The notes beneath the pieces were generated by a model. It saw only the letters and a program-made list of their open reading frames with translations. It ran no database searches and was not told the DNA's origin. The position numbers were made by a program, and so were the translations under genes. A DNA stretch of 59,857 bases. Source: a virus (lineage: Duplodnaviria; Caudoviricetes). Below, in pieces: positions 20,079 through 55,556 of the stretch. The stretch covers positions 1-59,857 of IMG/VR virus record IMGVR_UViG_3300012347_000101. One strand, given 5' to 3'. Positions within the stretch are counted from its first letter, which is position 1. Each line of letters starts with the position of its first letter.

Positions 20079-22053
20079 TGAGTTCCTCGCGCAGCGCATT
20101 CACCAGACTGGAAATTTTAGCTGGATTGTATTCAACCAGTCCGCCTTCAGCGTAACCGTGTTCTGGTTCTGGCGTTTCATGCTGGCCTGACATCACGTTA
20201 CCGATGATGTAGTCGACCTCAAGCGGGCTGTACTCGGCGTGGCCGACTAGGCCGCCTTCAGCGAAGCCTTTAGCCTTGTTCAATGCATTCAGCGCGCTGT
20301 TTATCTCTTCAGCCGTCCCATACTCAGGAGCCTCTACACCATGTTGTTTCATCTCTTGAATCAACTCTGGAGTCCAATTGCTACGCTGCATACGAGCGTT
20401 GCTCAGGTCGCCAACTTCACCCCACTTACCAGAGCGCACAAAGTCCTGCACGAACGGTAGGTATTCTTCCTTGGGAGCCTTGTTGGCTTTACCTTTGATC
20501 TGAACTATCTTTTCAGGAACTTGAGACGAAGCCGCTTCATACGCTGCTGAAGTTTCAGGATGGTATTCCTGCAACCACTCAGACAACGACTTACCTGCTC
20601 CGCTCTCATCCGTGAAGTATTTGCTAAACAGCTTCGGATCATGCTTCTGCAACCAGAGCTGACCTTCAAAACTTTGGGGAGAAGTCTCAACCGTCACATG
20701 AGGCTCGCCGGTCTTCTTGTTGCGTAGGCTGAAGATTCGCGACTTACCCTCAAGCACGTCTGGGCAGTAACCGCCGACGCAGTGGCCCATGGTCTCGCCT
20801 TCGTACTTGAGGGCGTCTTCAAGGGCTGCGTGGCGAGGATCTCTGTTGACTTCTTGCAGTTTACCCTCAGAGTCCACCCACTGTTCTTTACCGAAGCGGT
20901 CGGTCGTAGTTGTCCAACCTTCAGGCAGGTCATCAGGCTTCTTCAACTCCACCCACTTGTACGGGGCGTCCTCGTAGTCTTTATGCGTGAACGCCGCAGC
21001 GTTGTTGGCGCGAGCCTGATCAGCTGCGACTTTCTGCGCCGCTCTCCAGTCGTTAATCGCAGCCACACGCTCAACCGCCTGAGGCACTGTCACTTTGTCA
21101 AGATCTTGGTACTTCCAACGCAGGTTAGCGGGCAGGCCGCTCTCAGGGTTCACGGTGTTGCGGAGTTCGTCAATCAGATGATTGAAGCCGAGGTCATCTC
21201 CTAAGTCTCGCGGGTTACCAACCCCGTAAACTGAAGTTTCCGGAGGAACCTTAGCCAACCACGGGTTTTCTCTCACTTCTCTTGGGTAGTCTACCAGCTT
21301 ACCGGCGAGGTTAGGCTCAACAGACAAGTCTGAGGCTGTTTCCCACTGCTTAGCTAACTCGGATCGCCCTAAGCCTTGGCCGGCAAAGCCTTCCATCTCA
21401 CGGATATGTCTCAAATCATCGGTCTTACTCGGCCCGTATGTCCTAGGTTCAGCATGCAACACGCCCCGCTCAGCCAGCGCCCGCAAAGGATCCTCAGGGG
21501 TGCCCATCTCGTTCTTGATGTACTTGCTGAGCTTGGTGTCGAGCCACTTGTTGACAACGGCGTTAGGATCTGATTTCAAATACTCAGCCCACTGCTCATC
21601 AGAAGCTATGTCCGGCTTTGAAGTAACCCGCGACTTCATCGGCTCAACGGCCTTCTCAACCGAGCCGGCAAGCCAGTTACCACCCTTGGGCTTGATGACG
21701 TGCGGAACGCCGGCAGCCGAGGCGTGAGCAAAGTCCTTGGCGGCCTGAGTCACAGCGAACTTGGCGGCACGGGGTACACGGGCCAAAGCTGGCGCAGCAA
21801 ACATCATCGCGTCTGCCGTGTCGTCTTGAAGCATAGGCACGTTGGCCTTGCCGATGTTCGTTACCGGCTCGCCGTAGCTCATGCGCTCAACAGTACGGGC
21901 CGTGGCCGGTAGGCCGAGCGCCTCACTTAGCAAACGGGCCGGTGGGTTAGAGTAGCCGAAAGGCTTGCTGGCGAACTCGTGGGTGCCTTGCAGCAGACGG
22001 GCTAACTGCGCCAACGCAGGGGACTGAGGGGTTGCTCTCAGGTTATCGGCCAC
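20071..22053 (-). CDS. Large protein with a PcfJ-like domain and C-terminal AEGGLV motifs
   Basis: L.YEGETMGHCVGGY...IFSLR...PHVTVE...QIKGKAN; AAGGAG before GTG 22053. Confidence 0.65.
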   Translation of the reverse strand: MADNLRATPQSPALAQLARLLQGTHEFASKPFGYSNPPARLLSEALGLPATARTVERMSYGEPVTNIGKANVPMLQDDTADAMMFAAPALARVPRAAKFAVTQAAKDFAHASAAGVPHVIKPKGGNWLAGSVEKAVEPMKSRVTSKPDIASDEQWAEYLKSDPNAVVNKWLDTKLSKYIKNEMGTPEDPLRALAERGVLHAEPRTYGPSKTDDLRHIREMEGFAGQGLGRSELAKQWETASDLSVEPNLAGKLVDYPREVRENPWLAKVPPETSVYGVGNPRDLGDDLGFNHLIDELRNTVNPESGLPANLRWKYQDLDKVTVPQAVERVAAINDWRAAQKVAADQARANNAAAFTHKDYEDAPYKWVELKKPDDLPEGWTTTTDRFGKEQWVDSEGKLQEVNRDPRHAALEDALKYEGETMGHCVGGYCPDVLEGKSRIFSLRNKKTGEPHVTVETSPQSFEGQLWLQKHDPKLFSKYFTDESGAGKSLSEWLQEYHPETSAAYEAASSQVPEKIVQIKGKANKAPKEEYLPFVQDFVRSGKWGEVGDLSNARMQRSNWTPELIQEMKQHGVEAPEYGTAEEINSALNALNKAKGFAEGGLVGHAEYSPLEVDYIIGNVMSGQHETPEPEHGYAEGGLVEYNPAKISSLVNALREELNA

Positions 22054-22483
22054 AAGCACACTCCTTGTACTGGACGAGACCGCCCACGGCTTTGTTGATC
22101 CACGGTAGACCTTTGGTCTGCTTTGTCTTTGCCTGCTCAGCGAGCTGGGCGGCTAGCGTTTCTAACTCTTCTTGAGACTTTGCACGCTGTGCTAGGGCAA
22201 CCCCTAGGGCGTTGTTGTGCAAGTCCTGAGCGTAGTCTGAAGGCATCTGACCCACACCGAAGGCGGTCTTGAGCGCAGCCAGCGGAGACTCTTTGTACTC
22301 ATGCCAACGACCCAACCGCTCGGCCCACTCGGGGCCGTACTTGCGGGCGAGGGTTCCGGCAGCCAACATGTGACGCAGTGCGTCCTGTTGAGTGTCCTGC
22401 CCCAACTGGCCAGGATAAAACTCATACGCCGTCTGGCGCGAGTAGTTGGGTACGGAAATGAGCAGGGGTGCGTCAGAAGCCAT
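22043..22483 (-). CDS. DUF6973-like protein
   Basis: DALRH...HE...DLHNNALG motif set. Confidence 0.55.
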   Translation of the reverse strand: MASDAPLLISVPNYSRQTAYEFYPGQLGQDTQQDALRHMLAAGTLARKYGPEWAERLGRWHEYKESPLAALKTAFGVGQMPSDYAQDLHNNALGVALAQRAKSQEELETLAAQLAEQAKTKQTKGLPWINKAVGGLVQYKECACGR

Positions 22484-31825: not shown

Positions 31826-31912
31826 GTTGTTTTGTTGAATTTTTTGAGGCAAAATTCAATACGTTGGTTCAGCAATGAATGAACAATGAATAACTTAATA
31901 ACTGGAGTAACT
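31826..31912 (+). promoter_or_regulatory. Rightward promoter and ATAACT-repeat leader of the early operon
   Basis: TTGTTT-17 bp-CAAAAT in an AT-rich divergence point; ATAACTTAATAACTGGAGTAACT before ATG 31913. Confidence 0.55.
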
Positions 31913-32470
31913 ATGAAAACCATCAACGTCAAATCCGCCACCACCCGTGAACTGGTTGAGTTCTACAACGCTCATTCAGGCTGCGACCCGATCAAGAAAT
32001 TCAGCGACCGTCGCAACGCTGAAAAGAGAGTTGAGAAACTCATGGCGGAGCGTCAGTTCAAAGCCCCCTCACCCCTCGTTGACAATCAACACTGCCCAGT
32101 GTGCAATAGTGCTGATTTGTACTTCGGCAAATTGGTCAGAGAGCAACTGGTTGACGAAGAACACATCGTCACCTGCCGCTCATGCGGTTACACCGTTGAC
32201 TGGCGCAAGAGCAAAAACGCCAAGCCGGTCACCAAGGTCGGCCCCCGCCCCGCTATGAAGCAGTCCTTGAAGCTCGACCGCCGCATCCTTCACTTTGAAA
32301 CCGGCACCGTCTACGCTAACGCTTGTCAAGTGTGGAAGGCTAACCTCGTCACCAGCTCACAAGGTGATCGTCTGTCGGCTACGCTCTACGGCGCTGCCAA
32401 GCGCGGTGAGTACCCCATGTTGACCGTCAATGGCCAAAACTTTAAACTGGTGACGGGCGGTGCAAAATGA
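31913..32470 (+). CDS. First early gene; Zn-ribbon protein
   Basis: HCPVC...TCRSC; GGAG RBS supports ATG 31913. Confidence 0.7.
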   Translation: MKTINVKSATTRELVEFYNAHSGCDPIKKFSDRRNAEKRVEKLMAERQFKAPSPLVDNQHCPVCNSADLYFGKLVREQLVDEEHIVTCRSCGYTVDWRKSKNAKPVTKVGPRPAMKQSLKLDRRILHFETGTVYANACQVWKANLVTSSQGDRLSATLYGAAKRGEYPMLTVNGQNFKLVTGGAK

Positions 32471-32837: not shown

Positions 32838-33550
32838 GCAAGCAAACCCGAGTCCGTTGGACTGGTGAAGAGCGCACGTTGATCGTGCAGCGTATGGTTC
32901 AACTGTTGAACAAATCCGGTAGGAACTATTCAAAAGCCGGTTTAGCCTTGTTGGCTCAAGAGGCTCTGCCCGCCAATCGCCGCCGTAAGATCTTTACCCC
33001 TAAAGAACTCAAAGACATGAACGCCAAGGCTCACACCTTAGCAGCTGAAGCAATCAAGCCGATGATCCGTGAGGCTGAGGCCGCCGTGGTTGAGCATGCG
33101 GTCATTCCTCAGCGTGACGAGCTGGCAACCCTGCTTGAGTCGTTGATTGACAAGATCGCTGATAAGGTGGCCGAGCGCCTCGCAGCGCAGCTCCAAGTGC
33201 ACGTCAACACAACGACCACAACACACAGCGAGCACCGCCCTCGCCACAACCCTCAGCCACCTTGCAACGCTCCCCGTGAGCCTAAGGTCGGTGTGCTAAT
33301 CTTAGGTATGCAACCTCATCAGGGTAACATCCTTAAGCAGGAGTTCCCGATGCTTGACATCACCTGTTACGACTCTGACGAGGCCCGCACCAAGCAGGTC
33401 ATCATGCGCAAGCACACCATCGGTATGACCCGCTTCTTGAGCCACCAAGTTGAAGACCGTTACCGCAAGTGCCCCCGCTATCATCGCCACGCTACCGGCG
33501 TGTCTGAGCTGAAGACCCTGTTGAAACAAATTGCCGAAGGAACCGTATGA
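32834..33550 (+). CDS. Hypothetical protein (possible N-terminal DNA-binding domain)
   Basis: 238 aa; RWTGEER start; AGGAG RBS. Confidence 0.65.
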   Translation: MSKQTRVRWTGEERTLIVQRMVQLLNKSGRNYSKAGLALLAQEALPANRRRKIFTPKELKDMNAKAHTLAAEAIKPMIREAEAAVVEHAVIPQRDELATLLESLIDKIADKVAERLAAQLQVHVNTTTTTHSEHRPRHNPQPPCNAPREPKVGVLILGMQPHQGNILKQEFPMLDITCYDSDEARTKQVIMRKHTIGMTRFLSHQVEDRYRKCPRYHRHATGVSELKTLLKQIAEGTV

Positions 33551-33849
33551 GTACGAACCACATTGAGGCCCGAGGCCGCACCATGTACTGCACCCGCTGT
33601 GAGTGCGCTGCGACTGTTAAAATGCCCGCCAACATTGACAACATCATCAAGCAGATGGACGACTTCCGTGATACGCATGAGAAATGCCCGCCCCGCGCTA
33701 GCGAGGCAGAGATGTCTGAGTACATTAGGGGTTTTGATGCCGGTTGCGAGCACCTGATGCGTGAGATAGAATTATTCAACAACCGAGCACCCCTGCAACC
33801 TGCGTTGGTTCCGGAAGTGCTGAAACACCTGCGTAAAGGCTTGAAATGA
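33547..33849 (+). CDS. Hypothetical protein with CxxC...HxxC
   Basis: YCTRC...HEKC; ATGA overlaps. Confidence 0.6.
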   Translation: MSTNHIEARGRTMYCTRCECAATVKMPANIDNIIKQMDDFRDTHEKCPPRASEAEMSEYIRGFDAGCEHLMREIELFNNRAPLQPALVPEVLKHLRKGLK

Positions 33850-34808
33850 CACAATCAATTTTCCCCGTCCTCGCACTTGACCGCGCTCAGGTGCAATGGG
33901 AGCAACACCTCGGGGACCTCACCCCGTGGGAGAACCGCGACGGTATCTGGTTCAAACGTGAGGACTACTTCGCGCCCCTCGGCTACGGCGGCCCTAACGG
34001 GTCTAAGATGCGCCAGCTCATTTGGTACATGAACCGCTACCGTGAGGGCAAGACTCACGTGCTGACCGGCGCGAGCATTCAGAGCCCACAGCTCAGTATG
34101 TCCGCCATCGTCGGCGCGCACTTCGGCCTCAAGTGCCGTCAGGTGGTCTACAGCAAGCCGCATACGGTGCTGACGCATGAGAACCCGAGTATCTCAGCCG
34201 GTTTCGGCGCTGTGTTTGAGTACGTGAACGGGCCGTACAACCCCATCATCCAACGGCGCGTGGTTGACCTGACTCAGCCCACCTCACTGGTGGTTGAGTA
34301 CGGCATCACGGTGCCGCACAAGACGCGCCCCGCTGAAGATGTGTTGAAGTTTCATGAGGTCGGCGCTAACCAGATTCGCAACTTGCCCGCTGAGGTGAAG
34401 ACGCTGATCGTACCTGCCGGCTCATGCAACTCGCTTTGCAGCATGTTGTTAGGTCTCAGCCGAGACTCCAAGAACCTGAACCGCCTGCGCATCGTGGGTA
34501 TCGGCCCTGACAAGCGTAAGTGGGTGCGTGAGCGTATGGTGATTATGGGGGTTGACATTGACCGCCTGCCGTTCGTCACCGAGTACCACAGCCTGCACGA
34601 CACCGGCTTCAGCAAGTACAGCGACAAGTTCAAAGGTGAAAACCACTCCGGTATCAATTTTCACCCCACGTATGAGGCCAAAATTTGGCGTTACCTGCGT
34701 GAGTCGGCCTCGCTTTACGCTGATGACAAGACTGGGTTCTGGATCGTCGGTAGCGCGCCTAATCCCGCAATCGTGAAGCCGTTCTACACTAACACAGGAG
34801 CCGCCTGA
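33846..34808 (+). CDS. PLP-dependent (fold type II) enzyme; putative decarboxylase acting on amino-acylated DNA thymidine
   Basis: LTP...WFKRED...NGSKMRQ (Schiff-base Lys), VPAGSCNS loop, FHPTYEAK; context of the modification cluster. Confidence 0.8.
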   Translation: MTQSIFPVLALDRAQVQWEQHLGDLTPWENRDGIWFKREDYFAPLGYGGPNGSKMRQLIWYMNRYREGKTHVLTGASIQSPQLSMSAIVGAHFGLKCRQVVYSKPHTVLTHENPSISAGFGAVFEYVNGPYNPIIQRRVVDLTQPTSLVVEYGITVPHKTRPAEDVLKFHEVGANQIRNLPAEVKTLIVPAGSCNSLCSMLLGLSRDSKNLNRLRIVGIGPDKRKWVRERMVIMGVDIDRLPFVTEYHSLHDTGFSKYSDKFKGENHSGINFHPTYEAKIWRYLRESASLYADDKTGFWIVGSAPNPAIVKPFYTNTGAA

Positions 34809-35648
34809 TGTTTAACCGTATTTACACAATCATCAAGCGTCGAGTCAAGCGCAAGCTAACCGTTGTCATCTACAAGAAGCCCAAGATCGTGCGTGCCTCA
34901 ACGCTTGAGCGCGCCCAACACTACGTTGACAACCACGGCTGCCCGACGACACGATGCTTCCCTCGCACCACGGACGATGCGTTCCGCCACTTGGGTGACG
35001 GCATGGAGACGTTCTTCCCCCCTGAGCAACGCTGGCAAGACAAAGCAATGTTTGCCGTTGGCGTTTGCTGCTGGATCGCCCTTGGCATTTTTTACTGGAG
35101 ATACCTATGAACATACATCAATGCCAAAAATGGGCAGAAACAAACGGCTTTGACGGGGCTGAGTTTTATGCAGACTTTCCAGCAGGTAGGAAAAAGTGCA
35201 AGTGGCTTGATGCGTACTTTGGGATGTTTGAGATTCCTGGGGTAACAGACGGTTTCCTTATGGTCAGCCAAATAGACGAAATGTTTCCAAATCTTTCTTG
35301 TGAACCGATTGAGGGTAAAAATGAACAAATTCTTTAAAGACGTAGTTAGCCTGCTTTACTGGCTCTTTCCCTTCATCTGCACCTGCGCGTTTGCGTACGT
35401 GTTCGGCGCGTTCATCGAGTGGTCACGCGACCCCGCTGACTGGGCTTGGCAGGCGCGTTTCTGCGCCGTTATCTTTGGTGTCTCGCTCGGGTTCGCGGTT
35501 GACCGCCGCCTTGAGTTCAACGTGCGGGACTGAGATGGAAGCTGTTGAAAATATCGTATTGATGGCGCTACTCATGGCGCTCGGTGTCAGCGTCACTGTC
35601 GCGGTGCTGATTGGTTTCTTATATCACTTGGAGGCTCAGAATGATTGA
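34808..35648 (+). other. Four small hypothetical genes (34808-35110, 35107-35337, 35321-35533, 35535-35648), three with TM helices
   Basis: Overlapping or abutting ORFs between the PLP enzyme and the transferase. Confidence 0.55.
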
Positions 35649-36633
35649 CTACCGCCTGCCGGAGAAGCGTGAGGAGTACTTCACCGCGCTCTACAAGATG
35701 AACCTCGAGTACGGCGTCATGCCTGGACTCGTGTACTTGTACATGCCCGCCTTGGCAAAGGCTAACGGCTGGGACGCTGAGCAGAAGCTCTGGTTCGCGT
35801 TCCTGAACGGGTTGACTCAGAACCCTATCACCTCGTTGCGTATGTTCCAACGCCTGTCAGAGTGTCCGCCCGAAGGCGCACCCCTCACTGGCTTTGAGCA
35901 GTGGTTCAACGACAACTGGGAGACCTTGCAATTTGACACCGACCGCCGGTATCAAAAGAAGGACACCCTGCCCGCTATCCGCCAGTACGCAAAGCTCGTC
36001 AAGCAATACGGCTCGCAGGAGCAAATGCTCACCGGCGCTTACGCTGATCTGTGGAAGTTGGTTCGTGAGAACTACTACACGTTCGGTCGCCTGAGTTCCT
36101 TCAGCTACCTCGAGTACGTACACATCATGGGGTTCGGTGATGACTGTGACGACTTGATCTTCAGCGACAAGTCGGGCAGCAAGTCACACCGTAACGGTAT
36201 GTTGTTCCTCATCGGCAAAGACGACTTGGTGTGGGACAAGCGCCTGCCTAACGGTCAAGACGGCAACTACAACAACTTCAAGATGATGTGCGGGTTCTTA
36301 GCCTCTAGCGCAGATGCGCACATTGAGAAGTTCAAAGCCCTGAACCCTGACGTACCTAATGTGGGTCGGTTCACCTTTGAGTCTAACCTGTGTACGTTCA
36401 AGAATCACTTCTTCGGTCGTCGCTATCCAGGAGTCTACGCCGACATGGCACAAGACCGTATTGAGTGGGCAGACGAGCGCGGGCAGCAGGAACACACCGA
36501 GGTGTTCAAAGGTATGCGCGCGGGGCTGTTGCCTGAGTGGTTGCGTCGTGAGTGCTCACCGGCCTCAGTAAAGTCGGTTGGCGCTTTGTTCCCTGAAACG
36601 GGTGTCCCTTATCGTGCGGAGTACTTCTTATGA
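35641..36633 (+). CDS. Amino acid:DNA transferase (aGPT-Pplase2 family)
   Basis: DYRLPE.R, LWFAFL.G.T, FDTDRRYQK, FGRLSSFSYLE, SHRNG, ESNLCTFK, RYPG.Y.D. Confidence 0.8.
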   Translation: MIDYRLPEKREEYFTALYKMNLEYGVMPGLVYLYMPALAKANGWDAEQKLWFAFLNGLTQNPITSLRMFQRLSECPPEGAPLTGFEQWFNDNWETLQFDTDRRYQKKDTLPAIRQYAKLVKQYGSQEQMLTGAYADLWKLVRENYYTFGRLSSFSYLEYVHIMGFGDDCDDLIFSDKSGSKSHRNGMLFLIGKDDLVWDKRLPNGQDGNYNNFKMMCGFLASSADAHIEKFKALNPDVPNVGRFTFESNLCTFKNHFFGRRYPGVYADMAQDRIEWADERGQQEHTEVFKGMRAGLLPEWLRRECSPASVKSVGALFPETGVPYRAEYFL

Positions 36634-37176
36634 ATCCAACCCCTCGTTTGCGCTTTGTTGAGCGCGGTGTAATAGAACACGAAAGCCCTGACGGAACGGT
36701 CACGGTGGTGCGTAAGGTTCGCATCCTGCAGCAGTGGTTTGCGTACGACATCGAATACCCGATGACTAAAGGTGAATGGAAGGATGTACCATGCGAAACC
36801 GAACAATGACCGAACGCTCACGCCAAGCTGCAATCCGCCGCTTGAGCAAGTACCCTCTCGGCGGTGACAACTTCGGCTGGCACAAGTACTACGCTGAACG
36901 GTTCAACAAGACAGGTCGCCCTGACTGCGCCCATCTGGCGATTTGGTACTTGTTGCTACATCTTGCGTTAGGAGAAGAACAATGAAGTTGTCACGGTATA
37001 GAATCATCAAAGACAGCTACGCAGGGTTCGAAGTTCAGAAGTGGCGGTTGTGGTGGCCGTTTTGGATGCAATGTCACACGGGTCTTACACTGTGCAACAC
37101 TCATGACAGTCTTGAAAAGGCTTTGGCTTTTGTCGAATGGCATAAGGCCGGCAAAGAAGTTTGGAGGGAACAATGA
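36630..37176 (+). other. Three small hypothetical genes (36630-36809, 36806-36985, 36982-37176)
   Basis: Chained ATGA overlaps; 36630-36809 (LRFVER...ILQQW...GEWKDVP) is absent from the ORF track. Confidence 0.6.
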
Positions 37177-37754
37177 ATTTTCAAATCGTAAACATTCGCG
37201 GCTGTAACGGCTCAGGCAAGACCACAATCGTGCGCCGGTTCCTTGATCGCCTGCACACCGTCAAGCTCGGCCCTAACCAGAGCAAGCCTTGGGGCTATAG
37301 TGTTGACGCCTCTGCTTGGGGTATCCAGACCCCGATCATGGTCATCGGCTCGTATGAGAACACCTGTGGTGGTACTGATGGTATTAGCACTCAGGAAGAG
37401 ATCGCTGACCGCGTGGTTAGGGCTCGTGACTACGGACATGTGCTGGTTGAAGGTTTGCTCATGAGCAAAAGTTCCGCTGGTGGTCACGTAGCTCCGATCC
37501 TAAAAGACTACGGCGCTATCTTCGGGTTCCTTGACACGCCTTGGGATGTCTGCTTGCAGCGCGTGCTTGACCGCCGTAAGGCCGCCGGCAACGACAAGCC
37601 GTTCGACCCCGAGAAGACCATGCGCTCGGCCTATGAACAATGTCACCGCTCGGCTGAGCTGTTGACTCAAGCCGGTGGGTATGATGTCCGCTGGATCGAC
37701 CACCTGAACGCCGTCGGAACCGTCGTGCAATATTTGAAAGATGCTGAAGTATGA
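37173..37754 (+). CDS. P-loop nucleotide kinase associated with base modification
   Basis: IRGCNGSGKTT, IGSYENTCGGTD, LDTP...CLQRVLDRR lid. Confidence 0.8.
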   Translation: MNFQIVNIRGCNGSGKTTIVRRFLDRLHTVKLGPNQSKPWGYSVDASAWGIQTPIMVIGSYENTCGGTDGISTQEEIADRVVRARDYGHVLVEGLLMSKSSAGGHVAPILKDYGAIFGFLDTPWDVCLQRVLDRRKAAGNDKPFDPEKTMRSAYEQCHRSAELLTQAGGYDVRWIDHLNAVGTVVQYLKDAEV

Positions 37755-37984
37755 AAGTTAAATTTAGCGGTTGGCCTTGGCAGCCGGTTTATGATCATTG
37801 GTCCACCGGCCTCGACAAGACGGCTGGCGAAAAGTGGGGTTGGAACCCGTTCAAAGTTAAAGGTGCTGGTCGCTTCGGCGGTTGGTGGGCGTTCAAGTTC
37901 GGAATCACAATCTCGAGCAGTCTGCGGGACGTTATCATCGACCTAGGAATAGGTTCAATCCGCATCACTGGAGAACGTAAATGA
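37751..37984 (+). CDS. Hypothetical Trp/Gly-rich protein
   Basis: ATGA overlaps on both sides. Confidence 0.6.
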   Translation: MKVKFSGWPWQPVYDHWSTGLDKTAGEKWGWNPFKVKGAGRFGGWWAFKFGITISSSLRDVIIDLGIGSIRITGERK

Positions 37985-38898
37985 TTGATGTCTGCCCGTA
38001 CAAGCGCCCTGACGAGCGCACCGTGACCTCGCTTGAGGGGTTGCTGTACTTCGTCTGGGAACGTGAAGCCGTTCGAGTCGCCAAAGAGGGCGGCTGGCCG
38101 GTTGACTCACTCACCAATGACCCTGTACTCAAGAAGTACAAGTTCACCAATATTCGCCGCCGTGATGATCGTGTCTCTCAGTGGGTCATTGATCACTTGA
38201 TTGAGCCTCACTACGATGACAGCAGTTTGTGGTTTACGTTGCTCATCGCGCGCCTAATCAACTGGCCCCCGACCTTGCAGGCGTTGATGCATGAACGCGT
38301 CATCCCTTGCGGCCCTTACGAGTTTGACGCTGAGTTGTTCTCAGTGACGATTGAGGCGCTCAAGGGTGACGGAGCTAAGGTCTACTCGGGCGCTTACATG
38401 GTCTACCCGACCAAGATGGACGTGGGGGGTAACAAGTCTTCCGCGATCGCCACGCATATCATCGGGGACGTCATCAAACACTCGGATGATATCCACTCGG
38501 CGCTCTGGTATTGCCAGCCCACGGTGGCGGGGTTTGTCGAGGCGCTCTCTAAATGTTTTGGCCTGAGCACTTTTATGGCGGGCCAAGTGGCTGCTGATTT
38601 GACATATTGCCCTCACCTGAGTGGGGCGGCTGATTTGTTCACCTACGCGCCAATCGGCCCAGGAAGCTCTCGCGGTCTGAACTACTTGAAGGGCCGCCGC
38701 CCGTTTGCGAGCTGGGGTCAGGCGGACTTCAACAAGGCGCTCATCGAGGTGCGCGAGGCGATTGAAGAGCGCCTTGACATACAAGACATGACGCTACATG
38801 ATGTGCAAAACGTTATGTGCGAATTCAGCAAGTATTGCCGCTGTGTCCTGAATGAGGGCGTCCCTAAAACTATCTACAAACCCGAGGAGTTGTTCTAA
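37981..38898 (+). CDS. 5-hydroxymethyluracil DNA kinase (aGPT-Pplase1 family)
   Basis: ERE, T.DPVL..YKFTNIRR.DDRVS, YSGAY, FMAGQVAADL, GPGS.RGL, CEFSKY. Confidence 0.85.
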   Translation: MIDVCPYKRPDERTVTSLEGLLYFVWEREAVRVAKEGGWPVDSLTNDPVLKKYKFTNIRRRDDRVSQWVIDHLIEPHYDDSSLWFTLLIARLINWPPTLQALMHERVIPCGPYEFDAELFSVTIEALKGDGAKVYSGAYMVYPTKMDVGGNKSSAIATHIIGDVIKHSDDIHSALWYCQPTVAGFVEALSKCFGLSTFMAGQVAADLTYCPHLSGAADLFTYAPIGPGSSRGLNYLKGRRPFASWGQADFNKALIEVREAIEERLDIQDMTLHDVQNVMCEFSKYCRCVLNEGVPKTIYKPEELF

Positions 38899-39894
38899 AT
38901 GGAAATTACTGTACGCAACGTGAATCAGGCTTTTGGTGAGGTCTTCTGGAAGATGAAGGCGCTCGGGCTCAAGCCTGAAAACACCCGTAACGGCCCCGCG
39001 CTCGTGTTCCCTGAGCCGGTCATCACCACCTACCGCTACCCGCAGGAGCGAGTGTTGTTCCACAAGGGGCGCGATGCGAACCCGATATTCCATCTGATGG
39101 AGTCGATCTGGATGCTAGCGGGCCGCCGTGACGTGCAGTTCCTGCAGCACTTCAACAGCACTATTGGCCAGTTCAGCGATGACGGCAAGGTGTTCAACGC
39201 TGCATACGGCTACCGCTGGCGTAGGCACTTCGGGTTTGACCAACTTGAGGAAGTCATCAAAGCCCTGCGCCGTGACCCTGAAACCCGTCAGGCCGTTATT
39301 CAGATGTGGGATCAAGATGACCTCGTCAAGCGTACTAAGGACAAGGCGTGTAACACACAGGTCGTCTTTGACACCCGTGGTAACAAACTGAACATGACCG
39401 TGTTCAACCGCTCTAATGACATCTGGTGGGGTGCCTACGGCGCTAACGCTGTGCACTTCAGTTTCCTGCAAGAGTTCGTCGCCTGCGCCATCGGTATGCG
39501 CTGTGGGGCTTACCGTCAGGTGAGTAACAATCTTCACTTGTACACTGAAGTCTACAACGCCACAAAGTATGTGGAATCACCCCCGAACCATGAAGACTTT
39601 GACCTGTATTCATCGGGTATCGTTCGCCCCACACCTATCATGCTCAACGGCGACTACAAGTCGTTCCTAGCTGACTGTGAGAAGTTCTGCTGCGATCCGT
39701 TCAATCAGTCAGCTGAGTACAAGAATCCGTTCTTCACGCATGTGGCGCAGCCGATGGCCATGGTCAGCCGCATTCGCAAGATCCGCGCCGGTGACGGCAC
39801 AGGCTTCGCTGCTAAGATCCGCGCTCAAGACTGGAAGCGCGCGGTGTTCGATTGGATCCACAAGCGCGAATTGCTTAGGGCCGAGAAAGAGTAA
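38899..39894 (+). CDS. Thymidylate synthase superfamily dUMP hydroxymethylase
   Basis: TRNG, ANP.F...E, AYG.R, catalytic ACN, NRSND, GANAVHF (Asn indicates dUMP specificity), NLHLY; adjacent to the 5-hmdU kinase. Confidence 0.85.
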   Translation: MEITVRNVNQAFGEVFWKMKALGLKPENTRNGPALVFPEPVITTYRYPQERVLFHKGRDANPIFHLMESIWMLAGRRDVQFLQHFNSTIGQFSDDGKVFNAAYGYRWRRHFGFDQLEEVIKALRRDPETRQAVIQMWDQDDLVKRTKDKACNTQVVFDTRGNKLNMTVFNRSNDIWWGAYGANAVHFSFLQEFVACAIGMRCGAYRQVSNNLHLYTEVYNATKYVESPPNHEDFDLYSSGIVRPTPIMLNGDYKSFLADCEKFCCDPFNQSAEYKNPFFTHVAQPMAMVSRIRKIRAGDGTGFAAKIRAQDWKRAVFDWIHKRELLRAEKE

Positions 39895-39908
39895 ATCATG
39901 AATACCGG

Positions 39909-39956
39909 CGCGATTTGAAAATACAATCGCGCTGGTGTTAAATCTGAGGCTAAAAT
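39909..39956 (+). promoter_or_regulatory. Promoter with 23-bp palindromic box and TAAAAT -10
   Basis: CGCGATTTGAAAATACAATCGCG, 19 bp, TAAAAT; the palindrome extends to a 15-bp stem 39901-39939. Confidence 0.6.
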
Positions 39957-39962
39957 TCAACT

Positions 39963-40108
39963 CATGCTGACGGACAAGTAGGTTTGAAGCCAGTAGCGAA
40001 CACGAGTAACCCCTAGGGGTGAAGGGCTAGTAGTGAAGACGATGAAATCCGAACCTCCTAAATGCATGTCGTGCAGACGTAAAGGCTGACGCCTCGGAAA
40101 GACGAGGG
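39963..40108 (+). ncRNA. Candidate structured leader RNA
   Basis: CAUGC/GCAUG, AGGUUUG/CGAACCU, ACCC-CUAG-GGGU and CCUCG-GAAAGA-CGAGG stems; no ORF in the track. Confidence 0.4.
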
Positions 40109-40292: not shown

Positions 40293-40793
40293 ATGCGACA
40301 CACCCTTGAATTTATTATGGCCGGCAGTGAGGTCAAGCGGTATCACACCGTGCGCACACTGACGACCGAAACCGTGGGGCACCACTCTCACGGCGTGGCA
40401 ATGCTTTGCCTGTTGTTGAAGCCTGCCGCCTCTGAAAACCTGTTAAAAGCCGCGCTGTATCATGACCTCGCCGAGTGCATCACAGGTGACATTCCTTCCC
40501 CTGCTAAGCGCCTTTACGGTATCGGTACTCAAGTCAGTGATCTTGAAGACAAGTTACTGGCTGACCACGGTTTGCAGATGCCGAAACTTTGGCCCGCTGA
40601 GAAACGCATCCTCAAACTGGCTGACATCGCTCAAGGTGCGTTGTTCTGCACCCGTGAGGTCGAGCTGGGCAACCGCAAAATGAGCCTCATCTACGCTCGC
40701 TATATCTCTTACGCTGAGGACATGATCCTCGTTGGGCGCGAGCGCGAACTCTTCGATTTCATCAACACTAAATTTTTGGAGATCTTCAAATGA
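40293..40793 (+). CDS. HD-domain deoxynucleotide phosphohydrolase (YfbR-like)
   Basis: KRYH...ETVGHHS, ALYHDLAE.ITGDIPSP.K, KLAD. Confidence 0.85.
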   Translation: MRHTLEFIMAGSEVKRYHTVRTLTTETVGHHSHGVAMLCLLLKPAASENLLKAALYHDLAECITGDIPSPAKRLYGIGTQVSDLEDKLLADHGLQMPKLWPAEKRILKLADIAQGALFCTREVELGNRKMSLIYARYISYAEDMILVGRERELFDFINTKFLEIFK

Positions 40794-41227
40794 CTGCAAA
40801 CACTATGCAAATCGGCGGCAACCACTACCGCTCAGGTATCCAGCACTGGGACTTGATGGACGACTACCGTGTCGGCTATCTTGAGGCCGCCGCGACTAAG
40901 TACATCACCCGCTGGCGCAACAAAGACGGCGTCAAGGACTTGCAGAAGGCTTTGCACTTCGTCAAGAAACTCGCTGAGAAGCGTCAAGACGCGCCGCAGG
41001 TTGAGATCTCTGAGCGCATCCCTCAGGTGCCCCGTCAGGCTATCAACAAGTTCCTCGAGGCTAATCAGCTCACCGGCGACGATGCCGACATCATTAGCCA
41101 CCTGCTCACTTGGCAGAGTACCGGTACTTTACACCTTGTTGCGGGTCGCATTCAGCAGGTCATCAACGGCGCTACGCCTGATGACGGCGCTGACGCCTCA
41201 ATCGGTTACGTCAATCAGGATCGTTAA
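40790..41227 (+). CDS. DUF3310 (SaV/T7 gp1.7-like) protein; possible nucleotide kinase
   Basis: QIGGNHY...KYITRWRNKDGVKDLQKA.H. Confidence 0.8.
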   Translation: MTANTMQIGGNHYRSGIQHWDLMDDYRVGYLEAAATKYITRWRNKDGVKDLQKALHFVKKLAEKRQDAPQVEISERIPQVPRQAINKFLEANQLTGDDADIISHLLTWQSTGTLHLVAGRIQQVINGATPDDGADASIGYVNQDR

Positions 41228-43068
41228 TGCCTACTTTCGTGTTCGACATCGAGACACTCCCCAACTACACTCTGGTGTCCTTCAAGGACATCGAGTCGAA
41301 GGAGTATTTCCGCTTCCGCCGTAACGAGCCGGACGCAGTCGAGCGCCTGAAAGCCTTCCTCAACTCTGATGACACGTACATCGGGTTCAACAGCAACAGC
41401 TTTGACAACATCGTGCTGGCGGCCTTCCTAGCAGGGCGCACAACGATTGAGATCAAGCGCATAGCTGATGACCTGATTGTGAACCGTGTGTCACCTTGGC
41501 AGGCGTACACCAAATACTCCCTGCTGCGCCCTGCGATTGACACCATCGATTTGATTGAGGTTGCACCCTCATTTGTTGGCCTCAAAGCCTACGGCGCGCG
41601 TATGCATATGCCGCTGCTGCAGGACATGCCGATAGCTCACGACGAGTGGATCACTGAAGAGCAGCGCCCTATTGTTGACTCGTACTGCGACAACGACTTG
41701 GACACCACGGAAGAGCTGGTCAACCGGCTCGAGCCTGAGCTGATGCTCCGCATCGCGATGTCTAAGCAGTATGGCGTGGACATGCGTAGCAAGTCTGATG
41801 CGCAAATGGCTGAGCAGGCGTACATCACCTCGATGGGCCTGCAACGCCGTGACAACAAGATCCCTAAGACGATCACCTACACGCCGCCCGCCTTCCTGAA
41901 GTTTCAAGACGCCGAGCTGCAACACCTGCTTGAAAGGGTCTCCCGCCATGTCTTCGATATCAACCAAGCAACAGGACATGTTATCCTACCTGACTTTCTT
42001 GGCGGGGAAGTCATCAGCTTTGGGAGCGGAACCTATCAGCTCGGTGTTGGCGGCATCCATAGCACCCACGATAAGTCAGTTTGCTACGTTGCCGGCGGAG
42101 AAACAATCTGCGATATTGACGCAGCTAGCTTCTACCCGAGCATCATCCTTGAGTGCGGATTTGTACCTGCGAGCCTTGGAAAGCGGTTTGTCGATGAGTA
42201 TCGTCAAATTTACGAGCGACGACTTGAAGCTAAGCGTACAGGAGATAAAGCAACCAATGAAACCCTGAAGATTTCGCTCAACGGCACGTTCGGCAAGCTC
42301 GCTTCTAAGTACTCTGTGTTGTACTCGCCTGACCTGATGCTCGCCGTTACGCTCACCGGCCAGTTCACATTGCTGATGCTGATTGAGTGGCTCGAAATCC
42401 TCGGGGCTACCACCCTTAGCGCCAACACTGACGGCATCGCGATCCGTTACGGAAACCACCTCGAGGCTGGCGTTCAGAAGGTGGTTAAGCGTTTCAGCGA
42501 GGTGTCTCGGTTTGAATTTGAGTTCACGCCGTACCGTGTACTGGCTATGAAAGACGTCAACAACTACATCGCGGTCAAACCTGACCGTAAACTGAAGGCG
42601 AAGGGAATCTATGCTCCACTCTCTCTTAAGAAAAACCCGACTGCTCAGGTGGCAGCGGATGCAGTGTCGGAATGGTTGGCAACGGGAACTCCGTTTCAAG
42701 ATACGATTAAAGCTGCGCCTTTCACAGATTTTATCAGTGCGCGTAACGTCACGGGTGGCGGTGAGCAAAATGGCGTGCCCCTCGGTAAAGTTGTCCGGTG
42801 GTATCAATCGTCGGATGCTAGCCTACCGCCACTTAAGTACATTAAAAATGGCAACAAAGTACCAAAGACGGAAGGCGCGCGGGCGTGTATGACTTTGAAA
42901 GACAAGGTCACGCATCCCGCAGACCTTGACTACGAATGGTATCATAAAGAGGCAATCAAGATCGCACTCGCGGTTGGGTGTCACGCATACCTCACTGACG
43001 AACAGCTTAAACTTGTTGCCCCGCCCCCAAAGAAAACTCGAAAGAAGAAAACAGATGTCACAACATGA
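41227..43068 (+). CDS. Family B DNA polymerase with 3'-5' exonuclease
   Basis: Exo FDIE, FN...FD, YC.ND; polymerase DAASFYPS, KISLNGTFGK, NTDG, DVNNY. Confidence 0.9.
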   Translation: MPTFVFDIETLPNYTLVSFKDIESKEYFRFRRNEPDAVERLKAFLNSDDTYIGFNSNSFDNIVLAAFLAGRTTIEIKRIADDLIVNRVSPWQAYTKYSLLRPAIDTIDLIEVAPSFVGLKAYGARMHMPLLQDMPIAHDEWITEEQRPIVDSYCDNDLDTTEELVNRLEPELMLRIAMSKQYGVDMRSKSDAQMAEQAYITSMGLQRRDNKIPKTITYTPPAFLKFQDAELQHLLERVSRHVFDINQATGHVILPDFLGGEVISFGSGTYQLGVGGIHSTHDKSVCYVAGGETICDIDAASFYPSIILECGFVPASLGKRFVDEYRQIYERRLEAKRTGDKATNETLKISLNGTFGKLASKYSVLYSPDLMLAVTLTGQFTLLMLIEWLEILGATTLSANTDGIAIRYGNHLEAGVQKVVKRFSEVSRFEFEFTPYRVLAMKDVNNYIAVKPDRKLKAKGIYAPLSLKKNPTAQVAADAVSEWLATGTPFQDTIKAAPFTDFISARNVTGGGEQNGVPLGKVVRWYQSSDASLPPLKYIKNGNKVPKTEGARACMTLKDKVTHPADLDYEWYHKEAIKIALAVGCHAYLTDEQLKLVAPPPKKTRKKKTDVTT

Positions 43069-44753: not shown

Positions 44754-44945
44754 ATGAAACATCTCATAGTCCTAACGCTGCTAGTGTTCGTATGTTATTT
44801 CGGTTGGTACTACCTACCGGAAGAAGCTAAGGACATTTTGCGTAAGTGGCGTGGTACGCATCTGTTCAAGGTGCTCATGCTGTTCTTACTCGTGTGGCTC
44901 GCGTTCATTACACAGGCCACTTTTGGTTCAGGAAAAATCTTCTAA
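44754..44945 (+). CDS. Small two-TM membrane protein
   Basis: Two hydrophobic segments; precedes the SPFH gene. Confidence 0.55.
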   Translation: MKHLIVLTLLVFVCYFGWYYLPEEAKDILRKWRGTHLFKVLMLFLLVWLAFITQATFGSGKIF

Positions 44946-44955
44946 GGAAACGAAT

Positions 44956-45759
44956 ATGAAAAAGCTATTGATCATCATAGCAGCTTTTTGGCTCACGGCG
45001 TGTTCTCAAATTGACACGGGTAATATCGGTGTGGAGTCTACGCTCGGGCAGGTCAAACATGAGACCATGCCTCCAGGGGTGTACTTCACGATGTTCAAGC
45101 GCGTGACTGAGGTCTCCGCTAAAGAGCTGCTGCTCAAGTTTGACGACATGAAGCCGCAGACGTCTGACAAGATCACGCTGTCTGACTTGGACGTGGACAT
45201 CTACATCCAAATTGACCCTAGCAAGGCGGCTGACATCATGACCCGCTGGCCAGGAGACGTGACGTATGAGAAAGGTGAAGACGGCGCTCGTATCGGTATG
45301 AACTACGTTACCCGTCAAGCCCGTGAGAACATCTACAACACGGTGACTAAGTACGGCTCCGCTACGGTTCACACCGAGCGCACCGCTATCGCGGCTGACG
45401 TGGTTAAGCAGTTGCAGGCCGACCTTGATGAGTCCGCCGGCAAAGGTTGGTTCTTTGTTCGCTCGGCTAACGTGCGTAACCTCGTGACTGACCCTGCGCT
45501 TGAGAAGGCTATCATGGAAGCGGCTAACCGCCAGTTCCAGATCAACGCCAAGCAGAAAGAAGTCGAGCTGGCTAAGGCTGAAGCCGAGCGCATGCGTGTT
45601 GAGGCACAAGGTGTGGCTGACGCGATTCGCATCAAAGCCTCGGCGGTGTCTGCTCAAGGCGGGCAGCAGTTTGTTGACCTCGAGGCCATCAAGAAGTGGG
45701 ACGGAAAGTTACCGCAGACAATGTCAGGTAACGCTACCCCGTTCATACACGTTAAATAA
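44956..45759 (+). CDS. SPFH/band-7 (prohibitin-like) lipoprotein
   Basis: LTAC lipobox, IDTGNIGV, AEAER..VEAQG.ADA, IKKWDGKLP. Confidence 0.88.
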   Translation: MKKLLIIIAAFWLTACSQIDTGNIGVESTLGQVKHETMPPGVYFTMFKRVTEVSAKELLLKFDDMKPQTSDKITLSDLDVDIYIQIDPSKAADIMTRWPGDVTYEKGEDGARIGMNYVTRQARENIYNTVTKYGSATVHTERTAIAADVVKQLQADLDESAGKGWFFVRSANVRNLVTDPALEKAIMEAANRQFQINAKQKEVELAKAEAERMRVEAQGVADAIRIKASAVSAQGGQQFVDLEAIKKWDGKLPQTMSGNATPFIHVK

Positions 45760-55329: not shown

Positions 55330-55556
55330 CAGCTCAGGCTCTGGCAGAACCGGTCTGCCCATTCACGCCAATCTTCATACGCATACGGTATAGGCGGGTT
55401 ACGCCCGATTGTTGTGTTGTTGAGGAACTGAACTGCCCAGTCTTGCCAGTGGGCTTCGTCGGTGAGACGACCGAACGCACCGTAGGGGTCGAGGTCTAAA
55501 ATGACCTGATTGGCCCAGTCGAGGAGTTCGAGGTTGGTCGGCAGTGTGACTATCAT
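55329..55556 (-). CDS. Small Trp-rich tail-module protein
   Basis: WQDWA...P.PY...DWREWA; overlaps neighbours. Confidence 0.65.
   Translation of the reverse strand: MIVTLPTNLELLDWANQVILDLDPYGAFGRLTDEAHWQDWAVQFLNNTTIGRNPPIPYAYEDWREWADRFCQSLS

What the first reader, a model, noticed from the sequence alone, without database searches (positions are those of the whole stretch)
33846..36633. PLP enzyme plus transferase without radical-SAM, flavin lyase or linked acetyltransferase: final base undetermined
Seen: I found no CxxxCxxC radical-SAM gene or FAD oxidoreductase among the ORFs. Established: M6 needs a radical-SAM isomerase before PLP decarboxylation of glycyl-T, PaMx11 uses a flavin lyase plus acetyltransferase, and ViI decarboxylates O-seryl-T directly to 5-(2-aminoethoxy)methyl-U. 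Inference: the transferase must attach an amino acid through its side chain so that a free alpha-amino group remains for PLP. Ser would give the ViI base, whereas Thr, Cys, Lys or Orn would give a different and possibly new base.
Basis: partly seen in the sequence, partly recalled or inferred. Interest (0 to 1): 0.75.

Follow-up and report, generated by a model that had tools for sequence, protein, structure and literature searches.

The report
ViI-type thymidine hypermodification genes, M6-like cluster
This uncultured 60-kb phage carries a complete gene set for replacing thymine in its DNA with an amino-acid-derived base, made the way Salmonella phage ViI makes its base, but sequence alone cannot tell which amino acid is used.

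Summary
The window is a complete 59.8-kb phage. On its + strand lie a fold-type-II PLP enzyme (33846-34808), an amino-acid:DNA transferase (AADT, 35641-36633), a two-part 5-hmdU DNA kinase, a thymidylate-synthase-like dUMP hydroxymethylase, an HD hydrolase and a DUF3310 protein.

No radical-SAM gene or flavin lyase was found. The only acetyltransferase-like ORF is a weak GNAT 19 kb away, present in 3 of 10 complete relatives.

The core genes resemble M6/PaMx11 (30-44% identity). The PLP enzyme is a ViI gp226 homologue (33%, E 3e-60), not M6 gp52-like. The AADT belongs to the ViI-containing supergroup, not the glycine/polyamine group.

The PLP-AADT pair is adjacent in 56 of 80 related loci and fused in four proteins, so a ViI-style route is well supported: side-chain-linked amino acid, then decarboxylation.

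The donor is not determined. The AADT is only 26% identical to ViI gp247 and differs at three confidently aligned pocket positions. The tree does not resolve whether it is ViI's nearest kin.

Serine, giving 5-NeOmdU, is my single best guess (about 45%). A different amino acid and a new base is about 35%. Two complete relatives lack the PLP gene.

The parts
33846..34808 (+). Fold-type-II PLP enzyme, homologue of the ViI gp226 decarboxylase. Predicted Schiff-base lysine is K54.
   Evidence: 33% identity and E 3e-60 to ViI gp226; E 0.009 to M6 gp52. Motifs NGSK, SPQ, GSCNS, GIGP, HPxYExK and FWIxG are shared with the ViI clade.
35641..36633 (+). Amino-acid:DNA transferase (AADT, also called aGPT-Pplase2), 330 aa from the ATG. 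The longest ORF starts at a TTG at 35611. Catalytic C251, metal-site E247/S248.
   Evidence: PF18724 66.9 bits. Fold match to PaMx11 gp46 (8z2m). 26% identity to ViI gp247 (E 1.5e-24) and 37% to Mycobacterium phage RawrgerThat gp3.
37161..37754 (+). P-loop 5-hmdU DNA kinase (5-HMUDK).
   Evidence: 32% identity to PaMx11 gp49 (E 1e-19) and 30% to M6 gp54 (E 5e-16), both listed as 5-hmdU DNA kinases in PMC8989533 Table 1. Pfam hits are only sub-threshold.
37981..38898 (+). 5-hmdU DNA kinase helical-domain protein, like M6 gp55 and phiW-14 gp72.
   Evidence: PF18723 132.6 bits; 30% identity to M6 gp55 (E 1e-38); 26% identity to phiW-14 gp72.
38899..39894 (+). Thymidylate-synthase-family enzyme, presumed dUMP hydroxymethylase that supplies 5-hmdU.
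   Evidence: PF00303 80.7 bits; 43.5% identity to M6 gp58 and PaMx11 gp51. Hydroxymethylase versus methylase activity was not tested.
40293..40793 (+). HD-domain 5'-deoxynucleotidase-like protein. Its role in reshaping the nucleotide pool is inferred.
   Evidence: YfbR-like E 1.8e-13; 36-38% identity to PaMx11 gp52 and M6 gp59.
40790..41227 (+). DUF3310 protein, homologue of M6 gp61 and PaMx11 gp53. A conserved member of the module; role unknown.
   Evidence: Conserved next to the HD gene in most related loci.

Best explanation
This is a thymidine hypermodification cluster that works like the Salmonella phage ViI pathway. It sits on a gene backbone like those of Pseudomonas phages M6 and PaMx11.

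Proposed steps:
1. The thymidylate-synthase-like enzyme makes 5-hydroxymethyl-dUMP. The phage polymerase puts it into DNA in place of T.
2. The P-loop kinase, together with its helical-domain partner, phosphorylates 5-hmdU in DNA to give 5-PmdU.
3. The AADT attacks C6 with Cys251 and expels phosphate. It then lets the side-chain nucleophile of a free amino acid add to the exocyclic methylene. The alpha-amino and alpha-carboxyl groups stay free.
4. The PLP enzyme (Lys54) forms an aldimine with that alpha-amine and removes CO2, leaving a primary amine on a short tether.

My single most likely donor is L-serine. That gives O-serinyl-T and then 5-(2-aminoethoxy)methyl-dU (5-NeOmdU), the ViI base.

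Shown here: the gene families, their conserved catalytic motifs, their folds, their linkage, and the absence of isomerase or lyase genes.
Inferred: every chemical step, and above all the identity of the amino acid.

I put about 0.8 on the pathway logic and 0.45 on serine and 5-NeOmdU. The stated confidence is for the latter.
For: PLP enzyme:
- 33% identity and E 3e-60 to ViI gp226 over nearly its full length, against E 0.009 to M6 gp52.
- All gp226-family motifs, including K54 = ViI K92, are conserved.
- Fold type II, with 1j0a at TM 0.66. 1j0a is the template PMC8989533 used for gp226.

AADT:
- PF18724 match, and a fold like PaMx11 gp46.
- Catalytic Cys and the E-S/T metal motif are aligned.
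- Significant similarity only to the ViI-containing supergroup: E 1.5e-24 to ViI gp247, and E > 0.8 to the five glycine, putrescine and diaminopropane enzymes.
- Like ViI, it lacks YuA K159 and K248. It keeps D (= YuA E96), K (= K250) and R-Y (= Y257).

Linkage of the pair:
- In 60 of the 80 loci found with the AADT, a PLP homologue lies in the same locus. In 56 it is upstream on the same strand, with a median gap of 166 bp.
- 4 of 15 long AADT representatives tested carry a fused gp226-like PLP domain: P0015, P0022, P0031 and P0039, E 2e-44 to 1e-70.
- The pair also occurs together beside ParB and a TET/JBP dioxygenase in L075.

Other pathways:
- No radical-SAM, flavin lyase or PaMx11-type acetyltransferase homologue in the window.
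- None in the 133 related loci at E <= 1e-5.

The core kinase, helical partner, TS-like, HD and DUF3310 genes are homologous to M6/PaMx11. Serine is the only donor shown experimentally for a gp226-partnered AADT (PMC8989533, sections read).
Against: - The AADT is only 26% identical to ViI gp247 and falls outside the 6-row ViI clade (SH-aLRT 99). It sits in a 66-row clade (SH-aLRT 98) with Mycobacterium-phage and fusion forms.
- At three confidently aligned pocket positions it differs from all 6 ViI-clade rows: R102 against Cys, S155 against Asn, and T252 (Thr in 11 and Gln in 4 of 15 rows of its clade) against Trp.
- T252 corresponds to YuA K248 / 15599 G227. PMC13458397 shows that position is one of two that switch donor preference.
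- Among characterised AADTs, pairs at 27-35% identity use different donors: putrescine against 1,3-diaminopropane, and glycine against polyamines (PMC13458397).
- No enzyme of this clade has been assayed. No cultured phage in the phage collection carries a close copy; the best matches are 37% (AADT) and 35% (PLP).
Confidence: 0.45

Rival explanations
1. Same pathway logic, but the AADT of this clade uses a different amino acid with a nucleophilic side chain, for example threonine, homoserine, cysteine, lysine or ornithine. Decarboxylation then gives a base other than 5-NeOmdU. It could be new, or in the ornithine case putrescinyl-T reached by a new route.
For: - Pocket differences from the ViI clade at R102, S155 and T252, the last at a proven specificity position.
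- Trp to Thr and Asn to Ser are large-to-small changes, which would enlarge the pocket (inference).
- 26% identity, at which characterised AADTs differ in donor.
- The AADT is nearer in sequence (37%) and in pocket residues (R, S and T shared) to Mycobacterium-phage AADTs of unknown product than to ViI.
Against: - The alpha-amino and carboxylate-side residues D101, K254 and R261-Y262 are shared with ViI.
- An AU test does not reject this clade plus the ViI clade forming one group (p 0.47, delta lnL 3.5, groups named after seeing the tree).
- The added Arg102 argues against cationic donors such as Lys or Orn (inference).
- Serine is the only proven donor for this enzyme pairing.
Confidence: 0.35
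2. The amine made by the PLP step is tailored further. One candidate is N-acetylation by the GNAT-like ORF at 54889-55362 (-), by analogy with PaMx11 gp48. The mature base would then be an acetamide.
For: - Weak GNAT signal: Acetyltransf_3 E 1.2e-4.
- A 40-residue GNAT-motif match to PaMx11 gp48, E 5e-4 in a two-sequence comparison.
Against: - The score is below the Pfam cut-off.
- The ORF lies 19 kb away on the other strand, among large ORFs of the late region.
- It was found in only 3 of 10 complete relatives. 5 relatives with the PLP gene lack it.
- tblastn with gp48 against the window found nothing at E <= 10.
Confidence: 0.06
3. The PLP enzyme does not decarboxylate a DNA-bound amino acid. 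It might act on a free metabolite to make the AADT's donor, or carry out another fold-type-II reaction such as elimination or deamination.
For: - Its nearest solved relatives are D-cysteine desulfhydrase and ACC deaminase, not decarboxylases.
- Two complete relatives do without the PLP gene, so it is dispensable for some form of modification.
Against: - Its only characterised close homologue, ViI gp226, decarboxylates O-SerT on DNA (PMC8989533).
- Fusion to AADT and kinase domains in single polypeptides points to action at the same DNA site.
- Beta-elimination on an O-linked serine would undo the modification (inference).
Confidence: 0.09
4. The genes are present but the phage DNA is not hypermodified, because the genes are inactive or the modification stops at 5-hmdU.
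For: No direct evidence of modification exists for this uncultured genome.
Against: - All ORFs are intact with catalytic motifs conserved.
- The module is conserved across about 80 related contigs at 50-99% protein identity.
Confidence: 0.05

Closest known systems
Salmonella phage ViI (Kuttervirus) 5-NeOmdU pathway: gp67/gp243 kinases, gp247 serine:DNA transferase, gp226 PLP decarboxylase (PMC8989533)
   Same: - The same two tailoring enzyme families, with no isomerase or lyase.
- The PLP enzyme is a clear gp226 homologue with the same lysine and motifs.
- The AADT shares ViI's loss of the two glycine-carboxylate lysines.
   Different: - AADT only 26% and PLP 33% identical.
- Three pocket residues differ.
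- The ViI PLP enzyme is about 100 residues longer, with an insert.
- ViI's genes are scattered over a 157-kb myovirus genome, whereas here they form one compact cluster in a 60-kb phage.
- The donor amino acid here is unknown.
Pseudomonas phages M6/YuA (5-NedU) and PaMx11 (5-AcNmdU) clusters
   Same: - Gene order: tailoring genes, then kinase, gp55-like, TS-like, HD and DUF3310.
- The kinase, gp55-like, TS-like, HD and DUF3310 proteins are homologous at 30-44% identity.
   Different: - Their AADTs are N-linking glycine transferases with no significant similarity to this one (E > 1).
- M6 needs a radical-SAM isomerase and PaMx11 a flavin lyase plus acetyltransferase; none was found here.
- M6 gp52 is only marginally similar to this PLP enzyme.
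Mycobacterium phage (Coopervirus) ParB - TET/JBP - AADT - kinase clusters, and ParB-dependent T-dioxygenase systems (PMC13229309)
   Same: The nearest AADTs among cultured phages (37% identity). They share the pocket residues Arg, Ser and Thr with this one.
   Different: - They make 5-hmU after replication with a dioxygenase, not with a dUMP hydroxymethylase.
- No PLP gene lies in the 8.7-kb RawrgerThat region I looked at.
- Passages of PMC13229309 found with my search terms give no product.
Delftia phage phiW-14 gp109 and Acinetobacter phage SH-Ab 15599 Pplase2, which are diamine:DNA transferases (PMC13458397)
   Same: Same superfamily, same catalytic Cys and same metal motif.
   Different: They transfer free polyamines through nitrogen with no PLP step. 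They form the other deep branch of the family.

Membership tests
AADT / aGPT-Pplase2 (Pfam PF18724) | Match to the family profile above the curated cut-off | tested here: met
   66.9 bits against a cut-off of 26.2. A six-frame search of the whole genome finds exactly one copy.
AADT / aGPT-Pplase2 (Pfam PF18724) | The all-helical fold of the solved members | tested here: met
   Model pLDDT 97.5. PaMx11 gp46 (8z2m/8z2n) is the only PDB hit at E around 1e-3, probability 1.00, TM 0.57/0.64.
AADT / aGPT-Pplase2 (Pfam PF18724) | Catalytic cysteine and metal-binding Glu-Thr motif (15599 C226, E222, T223; PMC13458397) | tested here: met
   E247-S248-N-L-C251 aligns with YuA E243-T244-V-L-C247. Cys and Glu are present in all rows examined. 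Thr is replaced by Ser in this clade.
AADT / aGPT-Pplase2 (Pfam PF18724) | Transfer of an amine or amino acid to 5-PmdU in DNA | not testable with these tools
   This needs an enzyme assay.
ViI gp247-type serine (O-linking) transferase | Placement inside the ViI gp247 clade | tested here: inconclusive
   The tree places it outside the 6-row ViI clade (SH-aLRT 99), in a 66-row clade (SH-aLRT 98). An AU test does not reject a joint clade (p 0.47).
ViI gp247-type serine (O-linking) transferase | Same donor-pocket residues as the ViI clade | tested here: not met
   Differs at the equivalents of YuA R97 (Arg against Cys), K159 (Ser against Asn) and K248 (Thr/Gln against Trp). Same at E96 (Asp), K250 (Lys) and Y257 (Tyr). 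The D262 equivalent is not confidently aligned.
ViI gp247-type serine (O-linking) transferase | Partnered with a gp226-type PLP enzyme and no isomerase | tested here: met
ViI gp226-type PLP decarboxylase | Full-length homology to gp226 with the Schiff-base lysine | tested here: met
   33% identity, E 3e-60, query residues 3-305. K54 = ViI K92.
ViI gp226-type PLP decarboxylase | Fold-type-II PLP fold | tested here: met
   Model pLDDT 90.7. 4d9e E 8.5e-12; 1j0a TM 0.66, rmsd 3.7.
ViI gp226-type PLP decarboxylase | Decarboxylation of a DNA-bound amino acid | not testable with these tools
   This needs an enzyme assay.
M6-type 5-NedU pathway | Radical-SAM glycinyl-thymine isomerase (gp53) | tested here: not met
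   PF04055 gave 0 candidates in six frames. tblastn with gp53 gave best E 1.0.
PaMx11-type 5-AcNmdU pathway | Flavin-dependent lyase (gp47) and linked acetyltransferase (gp48) | tested here: not met
   gp47 best E 7.3, and gp48 no tblastn hit. Only a weak, unlinked GNAT-like ORF was found.
5-hmdU DNA kinase (5-HMUDK) with helical-domain partner | Homology to the proven kinases M6 gp54 and PaMx11 gp49, plus the PF18723 partner | tested here: met
   E 5e-16 and 1e-19. PF18723 132.6 bits. The kinase's own Pfam models score below cut-off.
dUMP hydroxymethylase (thymidylate synthase family) | TS-family fold, and hydroxymethylase rather than methylase chemistry | tested here: inconclusive
   PF00303 80.7 bits, and 43.5% identity to M6 gp58 and PaMx11 gp51. 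The residues that separate hydroxymethylase from synthase were not examined.

The most novel reading that the evidence does not exclude
The AADT of this widespread clade of uncultured 55-60-kb phages uses a side-chain nucleophile other than serine's hydroxyl. With the gp226-like decarboxylase, these phages would then carry a thymidine-derived base not yet described. Relatives that have lost the PLP gene would carry the undecarboxylated amino-acid-thymidine conjugate as their mature base, so the clade holds two natural chemotypes.
Probability: 0.35. Interest if true: 0.7.

Novelty: new variant of a known kind. Interest (0 to 1): 0.45.

Why it matters
Each new hypermodified thymidine has been a new piece of DNA chemistry, with consequences for resistance to restriction enzymes and for DNA labelling.

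This cluster is compact and complete, and it stands for a large clade. The PLP protein alone has 601 relatives at E <= 1e-3 in the metagenome protein collection, and the 120 best are 67-99% identical.

It offers a clean test of how donor choice is encoded in the ViI-like half of the AADT family. No structure and only one assayed enzyme exist for that half.

The PLP-less relatives are natural controls. If the base is simply 5-NeOmdU, the result still shows that the ViI chemistry has spread far beyond Ackermannviridae as a mobile two-gene module.

Tried and rejected
- Megablast of 33000-40000 against the phage collection found nothing.
- phmmer of the AADT against PDB sequences found nothing meaningful (best E 0.58, a kinase). 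Only the fold search linked it to PaMx11 gp46.
- The first tree run, with the mixture model, did not finish. I used LG+G4 instead.
- The phylogeny does not decide whether this AADT is nearest to ViI or to the Mycobacterium-phage clade (AU p 0.47).
- The PLP tree groups ViI with the fusion forms and leaves this clade apart. M6 gp52 sits on a very long branch of 5.95. The two trees together give three lineages with no resolved order.
- The YuA D262 equivalent could not be aligned with confidence, so I left it out.
- Phage Carin-5 (PMC12686479; outline and passages) was checked as a possible relative and rejected. It is a 154-kb phage with an SP-15-like modification.
- The PMC13229309 passages give no product for TET/JBP-linked AADTs.
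- The three small ORFs between the PLP and AADT genes (34808-35533) have no family match and are kept only in the closest relatives. I do not count them as pathway genes.
- I could not obtain residue-level structural superposition or ligand docking with these tools.
- Supplements and figures were not visible. These include Fig. 2 of PMC8989533, and Fig. 3E/H and Supplementary Fig. S6 of PMC13458397. They may already list contigs of this clade or the ViI-cluster pocket logo.
Full report
**What the window is.** The window is a whole IMG/VR virus record of 59857 bp, rated 100% complete. Its first and last 55 bases are identical, the mark of a circular assembly. G+C is 52-60% and there are no tRNA genes. 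Megablast finds no close relative among 50,697 phage records. The nearest large terminases of cultured phages are those of Roseobacter phages CRP-901 and CRP-902, at 45-46% identity.

**The cluster.** The following genes lie on the + strand.

| Coordinates | Product |
|---|---|
| 33846-34808 | PLP enzyme |
| 34808-35533 | three small ORFs with no family |
| 35641-36633 | AADT (longest ORF starts at 35611) |
| 36630-37176 | small ORFs |
| 37161-37754 | P-loop kinase |
| 37981-38898 | 5-hmdU DNA kinase helical-domain protein (PF18723, 132.6 bits) |
| 38899-39894 | thymidylate-synthase-family enzyme |
| 40293-40793 | HD 5'-deoxynucleotidase-like protein |
| 40790-41227 | DUF3310 protein |
| 41227-43068 | 613-aa protein with faint DNA polymerase B signals |

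- The order tailoring genes, kinase, gp55-like, TS-like, HD, DUF3310 matches M6 and PaMx11.
- The kinase, gp55-like, TS-like, HD and DUF3310 proteins are 30-44% identical to their M6 and PaMx11 counterparts.
- The 613-aa polymerase-like protein had no M6 or PaMx11 counterpart at E <= 1e-3.

- A six-frame search of the whole record for PF04055 (radical SAM) gave no candidate. The same search found the family in 14 of 14 control genomes.
- tblastn with M6 gp53, PaMx11 gp47 and PaMx11 gp48 gave best E values of 1.0, 7.3 and no hit.
- The four CxxxCxxC strings in frames of 60 aa or more fall outside the ORFs I took as genes.
- Pfam scans of 50 of 86 ORFs showed no radical-SAM or flavin family.
- One ORF, 54889-55362 (-), has a sub-threshold GNAT match and a 40-residue motif match to PaMx11 gp48.
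- That GNAT-like ORF lies 19 kb away among large late-region ORFs. It occurs in 3 of 10 complete relatives, and 5 PLP-bearing relatives lack it.

**The PLP enzyme.**
- It is 33% identical to ViI gp226 (E 3e-60) and barely similar to M6 gp52 (E 0.009).
- Lys54 in NGSKMRQ aligns with ViI K92 and M6 K36, the residues proposed in PMC8989533.
- The alignment of this clade, the ViI clade and the fused forms shares a string of motifs: WFKREDYF, NGSK, SPQ, YN..Q, YGIT, GSCNS, GIGP, HPxYExK and FWIxG.
- The model (pLDDT 90.7) matches D-cysteine desulfhydrase and the ACC-deaminase homologue 1j0a.
- Among cultured phages, gp226-like proteins appear in 347-348 records whose listed genera are those of the ViI-like large phages. 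None is above 38% identity to this clade or to its L139 relative.

**The AADT.**
- It passes the Pfam cut-off.
- Its model (pLDDT 97.5) matches PaMx11 gp46, the only PDB hit near E 1e-3.
- By blastp it is 37% identical to Mycobacterium phage RawrgerThat gp3 and 26% to ViI gp247. It is not significantly similar to M6, YuA, PaMx11, phiW-14 or SH-Ab 15599 enzymes.
- tblastn shows the same split. This AADT finds ViI-like and Mycobacterium phages. phiW-14 gp109 mainly finds Pseudomonas and Bordetella phages, with a few actinophage AADTs far down its list.
- A search of 1.84 billion representatives gave 207 relatives at E <= 1e-3.

**AADT tree.** In a tree of 108 rows (LG+G4, quick search, SH-aLRT only), this AADT sits in a 14-row clade (100). 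With L135 it forms a 15-row clade (97). These lie inside a 66-row clade (98) that also holds the Mycobacterium/TET-JBP forms and the fusion proteins. The 6-row ViI clade (99) lies outside it. An AU test does not reject this clade plus the ViI clade as one group (p 0.47; the groups were named after the tree was seen).

**PLP tree.** The PLP tree (20 rows) puts ViI with the fusion forms and L137/L139 (91/99), apart from this clade. M6 gp52 is on a very long branch.

**The donor pocket.** PMC13458397 (sections read) defines the YuA glycine pocket as D24, E96, K159, K248, Y257 and D262. It shows that two positions, 15599 G227/D238 = YuA K248/Y257, switch donor preference. My numbering of the YuA and 15599 sequences reproduces these residues. 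The table gives the confidently aligned positions.

| YuA position | This protein | ViI clade (6 rows) | Notes |
|---|---|---|---|
| E96 | D101 | Asp | same |
| R97 | R102 | Cys in 6 of 6 | differs |
| K159 | S155 | Asn in 6 of 6 | differs |
| C247 | C251 | Cys | catalytic, same |
| K248 | T252 (Thr 11, Gln 4 of 15 in its clade) | Trp in 6 of 6 | Thr in 9 of 9 Mycobacterium-type rows; Cys in 8 of 11 fusion-type rows |
| K250 | K254 | Lys | same |
| Y257 | Y262, preceded by R261 | Tyr | same |

- This AADT and ViI gp247 share the loss of both glycine-carboxylate lysines and keep the Asp, Lys and Arg-Tyr residues.
- They differ at three positions, one of which is a proven specificity switch.
- This is the main reason I do not call the product.

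**Linkage of the two genes.**
- Of the 80 loci retrieved with the AADT, 60 hold a PLP homologue.
- In 56 it lies upstream on the same strand (median gap 166 bp); in 3 it is on the other strand.
- The sixtieth is L052, where the AADT ORF is cut by the contig end.
- 9 lack a PLP homologue despite 2.5 kb or more of upstream sequence. 11 have too little upstream sequence to tell.
- No locus of the 133 examined holds a homologue of the M6 isomerase or the PaMx11 lyase or acetyltransferase at E <= 1e-5.
- Four of 15 long AADT representatives tested carry a gp226-like PLP domain in the same polypeptide: P0015, P0022, P0031 (which also carries a kinase domain) and P0039.
- In L075 a 66% / 61% identical PLP-AADT pair sits beside ParB and a TET/JBP dioxygenase, not a dUMP hydroxymethylase.
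- The pair therefore behaves as a mobile two-gene unit.

**Relatives without the PLP gene.**
- Whole-record searches of five relatives found no PLP homologue in two records rated 100% complete (those behind L070 and L076).
- One homologue lay elsewhere in a 101.8-kb record.
- A 20-residue remnant lay in a partial record (L028).
- Nothing was found in another partial record.
- The PLP-less AADTs keep the same pocket residues.
- If the pathway reading is right, these phages stop at the amino-acid conjugate.

**Mechanism and odds.**
- I put about 0.8 on the ViI-type order of events: hydroxymethyl-dUMP synthesis, incorporation, phosphorylation in DNA, Cys251-driven displacement of phosphate by an amino-acid side chain, then PLP-dependent loss of CO2.
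- All of this is inferred from homology to assayed enzymes in PMC8989533 (sections read).
- Within that order, serine and 5-NeOmdU get 0.45 and another donor 0.35.
- Further acetylation gets 0.06, a different role for the PLP enzyme 0.09, and no modification 0.05.

**Novelty.**
- Two literature searches turned up no paper describing the base or enzymes of this clade.
- PMC8989533 (section 21) already reports that metaviromes hold many permutations of these gene families, including kinase-PLP-AADT fusions. The kind is therefore known.
- What is new is the variant: an M6-like core joined to a ViI-type tailoring pair, with an AADT of a separate, unassayed clade.
- That paper's Fig. 2 and supplements, which I could not see, may already show contigs of this clade.

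Noticed in passing
window 54889-55362 (-): A 157-aa ORF with a weak GNAT acetyltransferase signal (Acetyltransf_3 E 1.2e-4, below cut-off). It lies among large late-region ORFs. It is present in 3 of 10 complete relatives, at 41-93% identity.
   Followed up: partly
records behind L070 and L076; also L028: Two complete relatives keep the AADT (65% identical) and the rest of the cluster but have no PLP gene anywhere. A partial relative (L028) keeps only a 20-residue remnant of it.
   Followed up: partly
L075 347-5208: ParB, a TET/JBP dioxygenase, a second weak AADT-like gene, the PLP gene (66% identical), a 252-aa unknown ORF and the AADT (61% identical) lie in a row just before the terminase genes. 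The same tailoring pair is here joined to a post-replicative 5-hmU source.
   Followed up: partly
proteins P0015, P0022, P0031, P0039, P0010, P0033, P0025: Various AADT fusions: with a gp226-like PLP domain (either order), with kinase plus PLP, and with a TET/JBP domain. P0025 is an AADT interrupted by an intein with an HNH domain.
   Followed up: partly
related loci L007-L135, kinase gene: Identity of the P-loop kinase to the window's falls into two bands, about 38-50% and about 67-83%, while neighbouring genes vary smoothly. This suggests that two kinase types are exchanged among relatives.
   Followed up: no
window 2647-5184 (-) and 5188-7686 (-): Two adjacent paralogous proteins of 845 and 832 aa share the same Laminin_G_3, SPRY and DUF7483 domain order. 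They are probably receptor-binding or fibre proteins.
   Followed up: no
window 31886-32470 (+): A 194-aa protein with a CxxC...CxxC zinc-ribbon-like stretch (phrog_4730). It is kept just upstream of the PLP gene, or of the AADT where the PLP gene is missing, in most relatives.
   Followed up: no
window 1-55 and 59803-59857: An exact 55-bp repeat at both ends of the record. It is most simply an assembly overlap of a circular or permuted genome, not a physical terminal repeat.
   Followed up: partly
window 44851-45759 (+) and 20071-22059 (-): An SPFH/Band 7 protein lies in the replication module, and a 662-aa protein in the late region has a PcfJ-like domain.
   Followed up: no
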